Assembly (NCBI RefSeq): GCF_055900595.2
Contig: NZ_CM148325.1
Length of the DNA stretch: 64,000 nucleotides
Strand: one strand, 5' to 3'
This document shows positions 17,413 through 21,283 of this stretch, in pieces. The notes beneath the pieces are model-generated. The model was given only the letters and a program-made list of their open reading frames with translations, searched no databases and was not told the DNA's origin. The translations under genes and the position numbers were made by a program. Each line of letters starts with the position of its first letter. Within the stretch, counting starts at the first letter, position 1.

Positions 17413-18684
17413 TTACTCAATCAGCTTCAACAGTGGCGACAAGCATAACAAAATGCCGTACAGCAGAATCATCCAGGCTTTAAACCCGCGAAGTTTTTCC
17501 AGTTGTGAGACTTTATAGATCAGGAAAAATGGAATGAGGCACGACACAATGCCATATAACGGGCTTCCCAACTGAAAGAACACCAGCACCGATACACGAA
17601 ACGAAACCCAAATCGTCAACGTAATGACGATAAAAGCGCAGATCGCCAGAGTCAGCATGCGTGAGTTAATTTTCTTGGTATCAATAATTCGGCTTAACAG
17701 ATTGAGAATAATGCCTTTAATGGCCTCGTGGAAACCGAGATAAATGCCAAAGAATGCGGTCAGTACGGCAAAGATATTCAGCACCGTAGAGGTGATATGA
17801 ATGATATGCCCAGGGATCACCTGCGCGGCCAGTGCCAGTGCCGAGATATTTTGTTCAAAGGCAGAAACGGCTTCTTCGTGGCTAATTGAGAAGGTAAACG
17901 AAAAGGCAAAAAACAGGATCACCGCGATGAGCGTGACATAACTAATTCGGTGGGTACGCAGCGCGAGCCGGGTTGCCAGTACTTTATCCGCTTCCCGTTT
18001 ACGATAGGCAATATTCATTGGGTTAAGTACCTGAATAAATACCGCAGAAAAGAAGCAAAAGGGAATGGTAAGCAGGACATCGCGGAAAAAGACGGAGGCT
18101 TGCGGGAAGGCGGTTATATTGGCGAAATTCCAGTGCGGGATCATCGCAAAACCGAACACGACGATAATCCCTACTTTGACCACCACCATTGGCCCGGAAA
18201 TCTTAAACAGTAATCGTTCACCACCAGACGCAATTGCCACCAGTACGGCGAAAATGGCGACTTTATAAAGTAGAGATTGTGAAAGATCGGCATCGGTTAA
18301 ACCGAAGGTTTTCAGGTACGAGGCGCTGTCGAAAACCACGGAGAGAGAGTAGATAAAAATCCCGTGGATAATCATCAAAAAGTAGATAACCCCGAGGAAA
18401 ATTCCCCAGTTCTTCCCCAGGTAATGACTGATAATATCGGTGTAGTCATTACAGGAATCGCTTTCAGAAAGGGTTTTTAAATAAATGTCCTGCACTACCC
18501 AGGTGGCAGGATAAGCAATGATCGCTGCGGTAATAAATACCCAAATTCCCTTCAAGCCAATTTGTACTGGCATCAGCACGGTTCCGGCACCAATCGCCAT
18601 GCCTATGCATAATAAAACCCAGCCGAAGTCGTAGCGTGTAAACGGCATTTTCTGATCGTGTTTCGGTAGTGTGTTGTGCTGCAT
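17413..18684 (-). CDS. yhjV: amino-acid transporter-like inner membrane protein (HAAAP/serine-threonine transporter family)
   Basis: ORF-track 17413..18747 trimmed to Met at 18684 ([22 protein letters not shown]...), about 423 aa, polytopic. Confidence 0.85.
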
Positions 18685-19044
18685 AAAGTCCTGTCCAGAA
18701 AGAAGTCGGCCTCGCAAAAATGAATAAACCCAGTTTCTCTTGCGCAACAGGTGGAGAAGTCGAATACGCAGTATGTAAAAAATGAGGCAATAGATTCACT
18801 GGGGAGGTCGCGAGGAGGCGCAATTCTACAAAATTGCGCATTTCACTACCAGTCTGGAGTCAGCCCGGATATGAACTGCAACTATTGCAAATAAAGAAAT
18901 TAAGCTGGAAGGTATCACGCAATGAGGAAGGTTGCCGGGTGCTGACGGTAAAAAGCAATCGTAAAATCAGCGGCAAGCCGGAAAGGTTCCGGTGAGGCGC
19001 AATGTTGCGGGGGCTTAATCCCTGGTGGCATTGGTTGCTGGAGA

Positions 19045-19112
19045 GAGAAAACCCCCGCACGTTGCAGATATTCACCTGACAACATCACGGGGGCTAATCT
19101 TGAACCTAGACC
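19045..19112 (-). ncRNA. rdlD: candidate Rdl antisense RNA, module 1 (approximate ends)
   Basis: minus-strand hairpin CGGGGG...CCCCCG (19052-19093) followed by T-run; upstream on minus strand a candidate promoter TTGTAA-17-TATTCT; about 65 nt, antisense to the ldr leader. Confidence 0.45.
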
Positions 19113-19159
19113 ACTCAAGAATAGCCGCGAAACGTTGTCATTACAACACAGGCGGCTAT

Positions 19160-19267
19160 ATGACGCTCGCAGAACTGGGCATGGCCTTCTGGCATGATTT
19201 AGCGGCTCCGGTCATCGCTGGCATTCTTGCCAGCATGATCGTGAACTGGCTGAATAAGCGGAAGTAA
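19160..19267 (+). CDS. ldrD: LdrD-type type I toxin peptide, module 1 (35 aa)
   Basis: MTLAELGMAFWHDLAAPVIAGILASMIVNWLNKRK; single TM helix with basic C-terminus; recognised as Ldr family. Confidence 0.85.
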   Translation: MTLAELGMAFWHDLAAPVIAGILASMIVNWLNKRK

Positions 19268-19317
19268 CGTGTCAGACGGGCGTCAGGCTGCCGTAATGGC
19301 AATTTGCGCCCGGACCA

Positions 19318-19349
19318 GGCCGCAGGGATAAAACTCTGCGGCCTTTTTC
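19318..19349 (+). terminator. intrinsic terminator of ldr mRNA, module 1 (equivalents at about 19801, 20285, 20768)
   Basis: GGCCGCAGGGATAAAACTCTGCGGCC hairpin followed by TTTTT. Confidence 0.75.
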
Positions 19350-19527
19350 GTAAGAAAAATGCAACGGTTGCAAGCGGATAATATTCTGCGGAATGCGCAG
19401 CACAGAGTGAAGAAGTGACGGATTCCGGAACAGAAAAACAGTCGTAGAATCAGCGGCAAGCCGGAAGGGTTCCGGTGAGGCGCAATGTTGCGGGGGCTTT
19501 ATCCCTGGTGGCATTGGGTGCTGGAGA

Positions 19528-19595
19528 GAGAAAACCCCCGCACGTTGCAGGTATGCACCTGACAACACCACGGGGGCCATTCTTGCATCCAAACA
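19528..19595 (-). ncRNA. rdlD: candidate Rdl antisense RNA, module 2 (approximate ends)
   Basis: same architecture as module 1 shifted +483 bp; hairpin arms at 19535-19540 and 19571-19576; candidate -10 (plus-strand AGAATA) at 19601-19606. Confidence 0.45.
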
Positions 19596-19642
19596 ATACA
19601 AGAATAGCCGCGAAACGTTGTCATTACAACACAGGCGGCTAT

Positions 19643-19750
19643 ATGACGCTCGCAGAACTGGGCATGGCCTTCTGGCATGATTTAGCGGCTCCGGTCATTG
19701 CTGGCATTCTTGCCAGTCTGATCGTGAACTGGCTGAATAAGCGGAAGTAA
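19643..19750 (+). CDS. ldrD: LdrD-type type I toxin peptide, module 2 (35 aa)
   Basis: MTLAELGMAFWHDLAAPVIAGILASLIVNWLNKRK (M26L relative to module 1). Confidence 0.85.
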   Translation: MTLAELGMAFWHDLAAPVIAGILASLIVNWLNKRK

Positions 19751-20011
19751 CGTGTCAGACGGGCGTCAGGCTGCCGTAATGGCAATTTGCGCCCGGACCA
19801 GGCTGCAGGGATAAAACTCTGCGGCCTTTTTCGTAAGAAAAATGCAACGGTTGCAAGCGGATAATATTCTGCGGAATGCGCAGCACAGAGTGAAGAAGTG
19901 ATGGATTTCGACGAGCAAAAATGGCCGTAGAATCAGCGGCAAGCCGGAAGGGTTCCGGTGAGGCGCAATGTTGCGGGGGGCTTTATCCCTGGTGGCATTG
20001 GTTGCTGGAGA

Positions 20012-20079
20012 GAGAAAACCCCCGCACGTTGCAGGTATGCACCTGGCAACACCACGGGGGCCATTCTTGCATCTAGACC
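20012..20079 (-). ncRNA. rdlD: candidate Rdl antisense RNA, module 3 (approximate ends)
   Basis: hairpin arms at 20019-20024 and 20055-20060; -10 complement at 20085-20090. Confidence 0.45.
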
Positions 20080-20126
20080 ATTCAAGAATAGCCGTGAAAC
20101 GTTGTCATTACAACAGAGGCGGCTAT

Positions 20127-20234
20127 ATGACGCTCGCAGAACTGGGCATGGCCTTCTGGCATGATTTAGCGGCTCCGGTCATCGCTGGCATTCTTGCCAG
20201 TCTGATCGTGAACTGGCTGAACAAGCGGAAGTAA
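20127..20234 (+). CDS. ldrD: LdrD-type type I toxin peptide, module 3 (35 aa)
   Basis: MTLAELGMAFWHDLAAPVIAGILASLIVNWLNKRK. Confidence 0.85.
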   Translation: MTLAELGMAFWHDLAAPVIAGILASLIVNWLNKRK

Positions 20235-20494
20235 CGTGTCAGACGGGCGTCAGGCTGCCGTAATGGCAATTTGCGCCCGGATCAGGCCGCAGGGATAAAA
20301 CTCTGCGGCCTTTTTCGTAAGAAAAATGCAACGGTTGCAAGCGGATAATATTCTGCGGAATGCGCAGCACAGAGTGAAGAAGTGACGGATTCCGGAACAG
20401 AAAAACAGTCGTAGAATCAGCGGCAAGCCGGAAGGGTTCCGGTGAGGCGCAATGTTGCGGGGGCTTTATCCCTGGTGGCATTGGTTGCTGGAGA

Positions 20495-20562
20495 GAGAAA
20501 ACCCCCGCATATTGCAGGTATGCACCTGACAACATCACGGGGGCCATTCTTGAACCTACACA
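20495..20562 (-). ncRNA. rdlD: candidate Rdl antisense RNA, module 4 (approximate ends)
   Basis: periodic equivalent of modules 1-3; the -10 complement here reads AGAGTA, a weaker match. Confidence 0.4.
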
Positions 20563-20609
20563 ACTCAAGAGTAGCCGCGAAACGTTGTCATTACAACACT
20601 GGCGGCTAT

Positions 20610-20717
20610 ATGACGCTCGCAGAGCTGGGCATGGCCTTCTGGCACGATTTAGCGGCTCCGGTCATTGCTGGCATTCTTGCCAGTCTGATCGTGAACTGGC
20701 TGAACAAGCGGAAGTAA
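20610..20717 (+). CDS. ldrD: LdrD-type type I toxin peptide, module 4 (35 aa)
   Basis: MTLAELGMAFWHDLAAPVIAGILASLIVNWLNKRK. Confidence 0.85.
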   Translation: MTLAELGMAFWHDLAAPVIAGILASLIVNWLNKRK

Positions 20718-20977
20718 CGTGTCGGACGAGCGTCAGGCTGCCGTAATGGCAATTTGCGCCCGGACCAGGCCGCAGGGATAAAACTCTGCGGCCTTTTTCG
20801 TAAGAAAAATGCAACGGTTGCAAGCGGATAATATTCTGCGGAATGCGCAGCACAGAGTGAAGAAGTGACGGATTCCGGAACAGAAAAACAGTCGTAGAAT
20901 CAGCGGCAAGCCGGAAGGGTTCCGGTGAGGCGCAATGTTGCGGGGGCTTAATCCCTGGTGGCATTGGTTGCTGGAGA

Positions 20978-21045
20978 GAGAAAACCCCCGCACGTTGCAG
21001 GTATGCACCTGACAACATCACGGGGGCTAATCTTGAACCCAAACA
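20978..21045 (-). ncRNA. rdlD: candidate Rdl antisense RNA, module 5 (approximate ends)
   Basis: periodic equivalent; position relative to the ldr ORF and bcsG matches the K-12 ldrD/rdlD arrangement as I recall it. Confidence 0.45.
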
Positions 21046-21092
21046 ACTCAAGAATAGCCGCGAAACGTTGTCACTACAACAGAGGCGGCTAT

Positions 21093-21200
21093 ATGACGCT
21101 CGCAGAACTGGGCATGTCCTTCTGGCATGATTTAGCGGCTCCGGTCATTGCTGGCATTCTTGCCAGTCTGATCGTGAACTCGCTGAATAAGCGGAAGTAA
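21093..21200 (+). CDS. ldrD: LdrD-type type I toxin peptide, module 5, variant (35 aa)
   Basis: MTLAELGMSFWHDLAAPVIAGILASLIVNSLNKRK; A9S and W30S relative to modules 2-4. Confidence 0.75.
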   Translation: MTLAELGMSFWHDLAAPVIAGILASLIVNSLNKRK

Positions 21201-21250
21201 CGTGTCATGCGGGCGTCAGGCTGCCGTAATGGCAATTTGCGCCCGGATCA

Positions 21251-21283
21251 GGCCGCAGGGGTGAAACTCTGCGGCCTTTTTCG
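21251..21283 (+). terminator. intrinsic terminator of ldr mRNA, module 5, abutting the bcsG stop
   Basis: GGCCGCAGGGGTGAAACTCTGCGGCC followed by TTTTT; the bcsG stop codon (minus strand) lies at 21287-21289. Confidence 0.75.

What the first reader, a model, noticed from the sequence alone, without database searches (positions are those of the whole stretch)
21093..21200. Fifth Ldr copy carries two substitutions (A9S, W30S)
Modules 2-4 encode identical peptides and module 1 differs only by L26M. Module 5 encodes MTLAELGMSFWHDLAAPVIAGILASLIVNSLNKRK. The Trp near the basic C-terminal tail is replaced by Ser; aromatic residues at the membrane interface are often important for small membrane-toxin activity. 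The copy nearest bcsG may therefore be attenuated or functionally diverged, and its Rdl -35 complement also differs (GTCACT versus GTCATT).
Basis: seen in the sequence. Interest (0 to 1): 0.35.

Follow-up and report, generated by a model that had tools for sequence, protein, structure and literature searches.

The report
Common Trp-to-Ser allele of edge Ldr toxin
The fifth copy of a small membrane-toxin gene in this E. coli array really does carry two amino-acid changes, but the striking one (Trp30 to Ser) is a common natural allele found only in the copy at the edge of the array, so this is ordinary strain variation in a known toxin-antitoxin system.

Summary
The window holds five tandem ldrD/rdlD type I toxin-antitoxin modules between yhjV and bcsG. 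The bcsG-proximal ORF (21093-21200) encodes MTLAELGMSFWHDLAAPVIAGILASLIVNSLNKRK.

These are not base-call errors: eight complete E. coli genomes are 100% identical across the array, and RefSeq already lists the peptide (WP_103253593.1).

- **W30S** is an established allele. The TCG codon occurs in 337 of 5,426 complete genomes, exactly once each, and in the terminal copy in all 17 arrays inspected (2-5 copies).
- **A9S** (9 genomes) and the T>C at 21074 (8 genomes) are recent clonal additions.
- **W30** is the published Fst/Ldr signature tryptophan: W in 47 of 49 family representatives, and a 7.3-bit Pfam penalty for Ser. Position 9 is variable.

The module is otherwise intact: PxxxG motif, KRK tail, Shine-Dalgarno sequence, terminator, and the best-scoring Rdl of the five.

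Attenuation is plausible but untested. No Ldr mutagenesis is published, and the toxic Fst prototype has Val at this position.

It also breaks one pair of a conserved 5'UTR-3'UTR helix that sequesters the ribosome-binding site.

Low interest; already known kind.

The parts
18885..21286 (+). Array of five tandem ldrD/rdlD (LDR-D type) modules between yhjV (17413-18747, -) and bcsG (21287-22966, -)
   Evidence: the repeat finder gives 5 copies with spacing 483/484/483/483. Alignment A1 has 95% mean column identity. PGAP annotates five Ldr-family CDS in the identical genome NZ_CP098223.1.
20818..21286 (+). Module 5, the bcsG-proximal (edge) module
   Evidence: Alignment A1. Homology with the internal modules ends about 21285, roughly 105 nt after the W30S base.
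21093..21200 (+). ldr ORF of module 5: 35 codons plus stop; peptide MTLAELGMSFWHDLAAPVIAGILASLIVNSLNKRK
   Evidence: Pfam PF13940 Ldr_toxin scores 81.8 bits against a cut-off of 27. RefSeq accession WP_103253593.1. Nearest solved structure is K-12 LdrD, PDB 5LBJ.
21117..21119 (+). Codon 9, TCC (A9S); the variant base is T at 21117
   Evidence: A centred 55-mer is found in only 9 of 5,426 complete genomes. Position 9 is variable across the family.
21180..21182 (+). Codon 30, TCG (W30S); the variant base is C at 21181. It replaces the Fst/Ldr signature tryptophan.
   Evidence: A centred 55-mer is found in 337 of 5,426 genomes, once per genome. It is in the terminal copy in all 17 arrays inspected.
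21141..21155 (+). Codons 17-21, P-V-I-A-G: the PxxxG motif of the Fst/Ldr family, intact
   Evidence: Read from the sequence. The motif is described as essential in Fst and Lpt (PMC7472228).
21082..21085 (+). Shine-Dalgarno core GAGG, 7 nt before the ATG (modules 1, 2 and 4 have weaker cores: CAGG or CTGG)
   Evidence: Sequence; inferred function.
20979..21044 (-). rdl antisense RNA of module 5 (Rdl5)
   Evidence: Rfam RF01813 scores 90.4 bits (gathering score 50) over the full model 1-66, the best of the five copies.
21051..21079 (-). Inferred Rdl5 promoter: -10 TATTCT (21056-21051), 17-nt spacer, -35 TTGTAG (21079-21074). Other modules have TTGTAA; distant Ldr loci have TTGCAA.
   Evidence: Placed by hand from the Rfam 5' end and the sequence. 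The positions are conserved in 13 diverse loci. The consensus scan found no promoter at its threshold, so this is an inference.
21067..21077 (+). 5' strand of long-range helix H1 (GTTGTCACTAC). C21074 faces A21229, giving a C.A mismatch unique to this module.
   Evidence: MFE folds. Pair counts on 13 diverse loci.
21226..21236 (+). 3' strand of long-range helix H1, in the 3' UTR
21084..21100 (+). 5' strands of helices H2 (21084-21090, Shine-Dalgarno region) and H3 (21094-21100, start-codon region), which pair with 21219-21225 and 21212-21218
   Evidence: MFE fold. H2 is supported by covariation. H3 is predicted only.
21212..21225 (+). 3'-UTR anti-SD and anti-start strands of H3 and H2
21250..21284 (+). 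Intrinsic terminator of the ldr5 mRNA (11-bp stem followed by a T run)
   Evidence: scan_promoters_terminators.

Best explanation
Module 5 is a complete ldrD/rdlD type I toxin-antitoxin module sitting at the bcsG edge of a five-copy tandem array. Its W30S change is not a private oddity. It is an established natural allele of the terminal copy of this array, present in about 6% of complete E. coli genomes, always once per genome, and always in the bcsG-proximal copy whatever the array size (2-5 copies). The likely reason for this position-locking is inferred, not shown. The site lies only about 105 nt from the 3' boundary of the repeat. Unequal crossing-over and gene conversion shuffle the rest of the modules between positions, but they rarely carry this segment into internal copies or overwrite it. 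In the window's clone two further point mutations were added in sequence to that S30 copy: first A9S (9 genomes), then T>C at 21074 (8 genomes). Mechanistically, the peptide keeps everything known to be needed in this family: the hydrophobic helix, P17xxxG21 and the KRK tail. The module also keeps its ribosome-binding site, its terminator and a perfectly matching Rdl. It is therefore most likely still expressed, still repressed by Rdl, and still inserted into the membrane. Loss of the interfacial signature Trp probably weakens membrane anchoring and lowers toxicity without abolishing it (inferred, roughly even odds). A9S is probably neutral. The 21074 change weakens two overlapping signals by one base each: the Rdl5 -35 hexamer, and a conserved 5'UTR-3'UTR helix that sequesters the Shine-Dalgarno sequence and start codon.
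For: Shown: (1) The sequence and ORFs are as described. Eight complete genomes are 100% identical over the array. (2) The S30 codon is in 337 of 5,426 genomes, with one place each. (3) S30 is terminal in 17 of 17 arrays, across array sizes 2, 3, 4 and 5 and at least 8 different BcsG protein alleles. (4) The S30-only peptide is on at least 1,000 contigs, the S9+S30 peptide on 455, and the S9-only peptide on 2 short contigs. (5) The order of events is fixed by intermediates. The nearest relatives 2017-02-2CC and EC42405 have S30 with A9 and T21074. Strain 2020CK-00188 has S9+S30 with T21074. (6) Rdl haplotypes and the L26/M26 states are shuffled among positions in different genomes, while the last ~100 nt keep the single-copy-ldrD type. 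(7) The module is intact: Pfam 81.8 bits, Rdl5 90.4 bits, terminator present. (8) W30 is conserved and position 9 is variable. (9) The signature-Trp literature, and Fst having Val at that site while remaining toxic, come. (10) The long-range helix has 95.9% of cells paired against about 30% when slid by 1-2 columns, two compensatory pairs, and module 5 as the only broken cell at its pair. The predicted MFE goes from -186.1 to -182.2 kcal/mol with C21074.
Against: No functional data exist for any Ldr point mutant, so 'partly attenuated' is only an inference. The edge-escape explanation is inferred from position: within this genome module 5 is only modestly more diverged than the others (7 private columns against 9 for module 4). 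The terminal position of S30 was verified in 17 arrays, not in all 337. Some of those 17 are clonally related, and three were chosen because their 55-mer was imperfect. The 55-mer counts are lower bounds, since alleles with nearby differences can be missed. The Rdl promoter assignment rests on spacing and conservation; the consensus scan did not call it.
Confidence: 0.72

Rival explanations
1. The terminal copy is a decaying, effectively dead toxin gene. W30S inactivated the peptide, selection on the module relaxed, and the later A9S and 21074 changes are the first steps of erosion.
For: The signature Trp is lost, with a 7.3-bit drop. On the S30 background the sampled secondary changes are mostly non-synonymous (A9S, V18I, I22F, L23F, R34W, against 1-3 synonymous). 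R34W hits the basic tail. C21074 breaks a conserved helix pair and the -35 hexamer.
Against: The ORF is a full 35 codons in all 17 S30 arrays and is annotated as a CDS in all 40 rows listed. Rdl5 is intact and the best-scoring of the five. The N:S excess is not significant (Fisher p = 0.15 or 0.39) and the sample was biased towards variant haplotypes. Only 3 of the 24 differences between the window and its nearest relative lie in module 5. Fst-pAD1 is toxic with Val at the Trp position.
Confidence: 0.25
2. The S30 copy is adaptively diverged. It could be a milder toxin, a toxin with a different target, or a dominant-negative partner of the W30 copies, kept by selection in lineages with multi-copy arrays.
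For: The allele persists across many genetic backgrounds (at least 8 BcsG alleles) and array sizes, always as exactly one copy. LdrA and LdrD are reported to act differently despite 74% similarity (PMC8309996), so small sequence changes could matter.
Against: One copy per genome at the array edge is what recombination geometry alone predicts. S30 was in 0 of the 4 single-copy loci and 0 of the 3 multi-copy W30-terminal arrays sampled, and its frequency is only about 6%. There is no signature of positive selection and no experimental hint.
Confidence: 0.08
3. The substitutions matter at the RNA level rather than the peptide level: they tune folding of the ldr mRNA.
For: In predicted folds, C21181 pairs with G21137 and U21117 pairs with A21200. 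The ancestral bases were mostly unpaired. Predicted MFE goes from -183.3 to -185.5 to -186.1 kcal/mol. The mRNA clearly has conserved long-range structure.
Against: These are single-sequence MFE predictions on a 381-nt RNA with an assumed 5' end. The energy changes are small. The ORF-internal pairs were not tested by covariation and are not obviously conserved in ldrA.
Confidence: 0.05
4. The two differences are sequencing or assembly artefacts in a repeat.
For: Tandem 483-bp repeats are hard to assemble.
Against: Eight independent complete genomes are 100% identical over the array. A ninth carries the same ORF in a three-copy array. The exact peptide is on 455 contigs and has a RefSeq accession.
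Confidence: 0.01

Closest known systems
LdrD/RdlD of E. coli K-12 (single LDR-D module between yhjV and bcsG; LdrD NMR structure PDB 5LBJ)
   Same: Same chromosomal locus and orientation. A 35-aa peptide, identical at 31 of 35 positions. A cis-antisense Rdl of 66 nt lies opposite the 5' UTR, about 49 nt upstream of the ATG. The terminator and 3'-UTR type match the terminal module.
   Different: K-12 has one module and the window has five. The peptide differs at F3L, A9S, M26L and W30S. Module 5 has C instead of T at 21074.
RefSeq WP_000170736.1 (Ldr L26/S30 allele), for example in E. coli SMS-3-5, FDAARGOS_497, 2017-02-2CC and EC42405
   Same: W30S through the same TCG codon, the L26 background, and the terminal bcsG-proximal position in the array. 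It is the direct ancestor state of the window's copy.
   Different: It lacks A9S and has T at the position equivalent to 21074.
Fst of plasmid pAD1 (prototype of the Fst/Ldr superfamily)
   Same: A single-helix peptide with a PxxxG motif and a charged C-terminus. It naturally lacks the signature tryptophan (Val instead) and is still toxic (PMC7472228).
   Different: It comes from a Gram-positive plasmid. Its antitoxin RNA overlaps the 3' end. The replacing residue is hydrophobic Val, not polar Ser.
hok/sok fold-back inhibition and the aapA1/IsoA1 5'-3' long-distance interaction
   Same: In the predicted ldr mRNA, a 3'-UTR segment pairs with the Shine-Dalgarno and start region and with the segment just upstream. 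In hok and aapA1 the same kind of pairing keeps the full-length mRNA translationally inert (PMC8167048).
   Different: For ldr the helix is shown here only by prediction and covariation. Activation by 3' processing is not shown.

Membership tests
Ldr toxin (Pfam PF13940) of Ldr/Rdl type I TA systems | A peptide of about 35 aa matching the Ldr_toxin profile above the curated cut-off | tested here: met
   81.8 bits against a cut-off of 27, with full-length match 1-35.
Ldr toxin (Pfam PF13940) of Ldr/Rdl type I TA systems | A hydrophobic transmembrane helix containing PxxxG | tested here: met
   P17-V-I-A-G21 is intact. The motif is described in PMC7472228.
Ldr toxin (Pfam PF13940) of Ldr/Rdl type I TA systems | Superfamily signature: a conserved Trp between the transmembrane helix and the charged C-terminus | tested here: not met
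   Ser is at position 30. W is found in 47 of 49 representatives. The literature calls this a signature but not essential: the family prototype Fst-pAD1 has Val there. It therefore does not exclude membership.
Ldr toxin (Pfam PF13940) of Ldr/Rdl type I TA systems | A cluster of charged residues at the C-terminus | tested here: met
   K33-R34-K35 are present.
Ldr/Rdl type I TA module | A cis-encoded antisense Rdl RNA opposite the 5' UTR of the toxin mRNA | tested here: met
   RF01813 at 20979-21044 on the - strand, 90.4 bits against a gathering score of 50.
Ldr/Rdl type I TA module | Long direct repeat (LDR) organisation at the K-12 LDR-D locus | tested here: met
   Five 483/484-bp units lie between yhjV and bcsG. 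K-12 has one unit at the same place.
Ldr/Rdl type I TA module | The peptide is toxic on overexpression and Rdl represses that toxicity | not testable with these tools
   This needs controlled expression. Published only for K-12 LdrD and LdrA.
hok-like mRNA control (fold-back / 5'-3' long-distance interaction sequestering the SD) | A conserved pairing between the 3' UTR and the SD/start region | tested here: met
   17 pairs counted on 13 diverse Ldr loci. 95.9% of cells are paired, against 28-32% when slid by ±1-2 columns. Two pairs have compensatory changes. Module 5 has one broken pair (C21074.A21229).
hok-like mRNA control (fold-back / 5'-3' long-distance interaction sequesting the SD) | A leader ORF (ldrX) coupled to toxin translation, and activation by 3' processing | tested here: inconclusive
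   ldrX is described in reviews, but I could not identify it unambiguously. Candidate upstream ORFs are 20935-21012, 21068-21130 and an in-frame ATG at 21003. Processing cannot be tested here.

The most novel reading that the evidence does not exclude
The terminal S30 copy is a naturally attenuated or functionally shifted Ldr toxin that has lost the superfamily signature tryptophan yet is kept intact at the array edge in about 6% of E. coli. In the window's clone, the later mutation at 21074 loosens both the Rdl5 promoter and the mRNA fold-back helix. That mutation would be tolerated only because the peptide is weak. If so, these strains are ready-made natural mutants for defining what the signature Trp and the 5'-3' helix do in Ldr systems.
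Probability: 0.2. Interest if true: 0.4.

Novelty: already known. Interest (0 to 1): 0.2.

Why it matters
The practical value is modest. No mutagenesis of any Ldr toxin has been published, and the role of the Fst/Ldr signature tryptophan is unknown. A common natural W30S allele, with isogenic W30 copies a few hundred bases away in the same array, gives a cheap first experiment. The position-locking of the allele is a clean small example of how edge copies of tandem gene arrays escape homogenisation. The covariation-supported 5'UTR-3'UTR helix supports the long-assumed hok-like control of ldr mRNAs, and gives a natural single-base variant (C21074) to test it. None of this changes what the locus is: a known type I toxin-antitoxin array with ordinary strain-level variation.

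Tried and rejected
- **Homologue search:** I used the 50%-identity representative search instead.
- **NCBIfam:** no model matched any Ldr variant.
- **Promoter scan:** the consensus scan found no sigma-70 site in module 5. The Rdl promoter was therefore placed by hand from the Rfam 5' end and remains an inference.
- **Mis-centred 55-mer:** my first 55-mer for the -35 base was off by one, because the variant is at 21074, not 21075. Copies with T were also hit. Only the exact-match band (8 genomes) is usable from that call.
- **Inaccessible papers:** Kawano 2012 (RNA Biol) and Masachis & Darfeuille 2018 are not held. Kawano 2002 and Pulido et al. on LdrD were also not found. I could not check the published ldrX coordinates, the published Rdl promoter, or whether the fold-back helix is already described for ldr.
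- **Relaxed selection on S30 copies:** the N:S comparison (5:1 or 5:3 against 7:8) is not significant (p = 0.15 or 0.39) and the sample is biased. I rejected it as evidence.
- **Excess change in module 5:** only 3 of the 24 differences from the nearest relative are in module 5, so there is no excess in the window's lineage.
- **Edge copies more diverged within this genome:** the effect is only modest. The edge-escape argument rests on the population data instead.
- **Compensating mutations:** the three module-5 mutations do not pair with each other in the predicted folds.

Full report
**What is there**

The window is E. coli chromosome. Between yhjV (17413-18747, - strand) and bcsG (21287-22966, - strand) lie five tandem copies of a unit of about 483 bp, with spacing 483/484/483/483.

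Each unit carries a 35-codon ldr ORF on the + strand and an Rfam rdlD (RF01813) match on the - strand. The ORFs are at 19160-19267, 19643-19750, 20127-20234, 20610-20717 and 21093-21200.

Modules 2-4 encode MTLAELGMAFWHDLAAPVIAGILASLIVNWLNKRK. Module 1 has M26. Module 5 has S9 (GCC>TCC, T at 21117) and S30 (TGG>TCG, C at 21181), as shown.

PGAP annotates the same five genes in an identical genome. The module 5 product there is WP_103253593.1. K-12 has a single ldrD at this locus.

**Not an error**

Eight complete E. coli genomes are 100% identical over 18700-21400. A ninth, 2020CK-00188, carries the same ORF as the last of three copies. The exact peptide is on 455 contigs of the public protein collection.

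**How common the three module-5 changes are**

I used 55-nt queries centred on each variant base. Megablast's 28-nt exact word then has to include that base.

- The S30 codon is present in 337 of 5,426 complete genomes, always on the chromosome and always exactly once.
- The S9 codon is present in 9 genomes.
Its exact-match class contains only the 8 genomes identical to the window.

In the protein collection, the S30-only peptide is on at least 1,000 contigs (the cap). S9+S30 is on 455 contigs. S9-only is on 2 short contigs.

Intermediates fix the order of events:

- The nearest relatives, 2017-02-2CC and EC42405, have five copies and the same BcsG allele. Their last copy is S30 with A9 and T21074.
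- 2020CK-00188 has S9+S30 with T21074.

So W30S is old, A9S is recent, and T21074C is the most recent.

**Position-locking**

I fetched the locus from 23 database genomes (L001-L018 and L031-L035). Array size ranges from 1 to 5:

- One copy: K-12, O157:H7 G5295, N17 and FAH.
- Up to five copies elsewhere.

In all 17 arrays that carry S30 (16 records plus the window), it is the bcsG-proximal copy and is always on an L26 background. These arrays have 2, 3, 4 or 5 copies and at least 8 different BcsG protein alleles. Arrays whose terminal copy is W30 have M26 there.

Upstream parts of the modules behave differently. The Rdl 5' haplotypes, a G5/G6 run and the L26/M26 states occur in a few recurrent types that are shuffled among positions in different genomes. 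This indicates frequent recombination or gene conversion.

The S30 base is about 105 nt from the end of repeat homology. The segment after it is of the single-copy-ldrD type. An exchange would have to fall inside that short, imperfectly homologous tail to move S30 inward or to overwrite it.

I therefore read S30 as an old allele locked to the array edge. This is an inference from geometry. Within this genome module 5 is only modestly more diverged than its neighbours.

**What the residues are**

[quoted passage not shown] 2010, PMC2887945; Weaver 2020, PMC7472228).

- Against Pfam PF13940, the W30/L26 peptide scores 90.7 bits, S30 scores 83.4 and S9+S30 scores 81.8.
- Of the 64 family representatives at 50% identity, 49 cover position 30. 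Of these, 47 have W and 2 have R.
- Position 9 is A, V, T, I, L, S or M.
- From memory of the Wimley-White interfacial scale, Trp to Ser costs about 2 kcal/mol and Ala to Ser about nothing.

Several facts argue against a drastic effect. The toxic Fst-pAD1 prototype has Val at the Trp position. The features shown by mutagenesis to be essential in Fst and Lpt (helix hydrophobicity and the P and G of PxxxG) are intact here as P17-V-I-A-G21.

A 2021 review states that mutagenesis of LdrD remains to be done (PMC8309996). I found none. The closest solved structure is K-12 LdrD, PDB 5LBJ, identical at 31 of 35 positions.

**Is the module otherwise functional?**

- The ORF is a full 35 codons in all 17 S30 arrays, and PGAP annotates it as a CDS in all 40 listed rows.
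- Rdl5 (20979-21044) matches the full Rfam model at 90.4 bits, the best of the five copies.
- The Shine-Dalgarno core is GAGG.
- A terminator follows at 21250-21284.

Secondary changes seen on the S30 background are mostly non-synonymous: A9S, V18I, I22F, L23F and R34W. The contrast with W30 copies is not significant (p = 0.15 or 0.39). My sample was also biased towards imperfect hits.

Only 3 of the 24 differences between the window and its nearest relative fall in module 5. Decay is therefore possible but not indicated.

**The base at 21074**

Taking the Rdl5 5' end at 21044 (K-12 annotation is consistent within 1 nt), the promoter reads as follows:

- -10 is TATTCT (21056-21051).
- The spacer is 17 nt.
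- -35 is TTGTAG (21079-21074).

The other modules have TTGTAA, and distant Ldr loci have TTGCAA. The consensus scan did not call this promoter, so the assignment is inferred.

The same base has a second role. Folding the putative mRNA predicts that 3'-UTR sequence pairs with three 5' segments:

- **H1:** the segment just upstream of the SD, 21067-21077 with 21226-21236.
- **H2:** the SD region, 21084-21090 with 21219-21225.
- **H3:** the start codon region, 21094-21100 with 21212-21218.

The same arrangement is predicted for K-12 ldrA, ldrB and ldrC.

I collected distant Ldr loci, with peptides 51-71% identical, and aligned the two UTR segments of 13 distinct sequences. For H1 plus H2:

- 95.9% of cells form standard pairs, against 28-32% when the partner is slid by one or two columns.
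- Eight pairs vary on one side only (GC/GU or UA/UG).
- Two pairs show compensatory double changes (AU to GC, and GC to AU).
- The only broken cell at pair 33/85 is window module 5 (C21074.A21229).

The predicted MFE rises from -186.1 to -182.2 kcal/mol with C21074.

This looks like the fold-back inhibition of hok and the 5'-3' long-distance interaction of aapA1 (PMC8167048; T1TAdb). I did not find it described for ldr in the accessible literature. The most relevant reviews (Kawano 2012; Masachis & Darfeuille 2018) were not available.

**Verdict**

The finding is real. It is explained as ordinary allelic variation in a known type I toxin-antitoxin array.

The interesting residue change (W30S) is a common, edge-locked allele that is already in RefSeq. 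The other two changes are clonal.

Whether S30 attenuates the toxin cannot be decided computationally. I put it at roughly even odds for partial attenuation, and about one in four for an effectively dead, eroding copy.

Noticed in passing
window 21067-21100 with 21212-21236 (and the equivalent positions in modules 1-4; loci L019-L030): A long-range 5'UTR-3'UTR pairing in ldr mRNAs sequesters the Shine-Dalgarno sequence and start codon. It is conserved from LdrD to peptides only about 51-71% identical. On 13 loci, 95.9% of cells are paired and two pairs show compensatory changes. I did not find it described for ldr in the literature I could reach.
   Followed up: yes
window 19968-20234 (module 3; G run near 19975-19981): Module 3 is 484 nt long because of one extra G in a G run. 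This puts the conserved upstream small ORF (ATG at 19968; the 25-aa ORF MLRGL..., for example 20935-21012 in module 5) in frame with ldr, giving an 88-aa ORF. The G5/G6 variant recurs in modules of many other genomes. Its effect on any leader-ORF (ldrX) coupling is unknown.
   Followed up: partly
window 19046-19111, 19529-19594, 20013-20078, 20496-20561, 20979-21044 (- strand): The five Rdl RNAs differ mainly in their 5' single-stranded part, falling into a few discrete haplotypes (for example GUUUGGGUUCAAGAUUAGCC against GUUUGGAUGCAAGAAUGGCC). The same haplotypes occur at different array positions in other genomes. This suggests mosaic gene conversion, and possibly cognate-pair specificity as in Sib/Ibs.
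   Followed up: partly
yhjV-bcsG intergenic region; loci L001-L018 and L031-L035: The copy number of the LDR-D array varies from 1 (K-12, O157:H7, N17, FAH) to 5 among complete E. coli genomes. Within the S9+S30 clone it varies between 3 and 5 copies.
   Followed up: partly
L023 214-321 and L024 358-465 (wastewater and other metagenome contigs): A distant Ldr clade (MTLAQLGLVLWDDLAAPVIAGILVSIIVSRMDNRK) has Arg instead of the signature Trp, while related representatives keep W. This is a second, independent natural loss of the signature residue.
   Followed up: no
an internal Ldr copy in one sampled E. coli array; same peptide as P0013: An internal copy encodes MTLAELGMAFWHDLAASVIAGILASLIVNWLNKRK, that is P17S. 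The change is in the PxxxG proline reported as essential in Fst and Lpt. The peptide is on 12 contigs. It is another natural variant at a functionally critical position.
   Followed up: no
window 21003-21092: An ATG at 21003, inside the Rdl-complementary region, is in frame with ldr5 with no intervening stop (a potential 65-aa form). The same holds in modules 2-4 and in K-12 ldrD. Module 1 has ATT there, and ldrA has no such ATG. Its relation to the published ldrX could not be checked.
   Followed up: no
L035 1-1014 (E. coli DFL.5): In one S30 genome, yhjV next to the array is truncated by an IS1 insertion.
   Followed up: no
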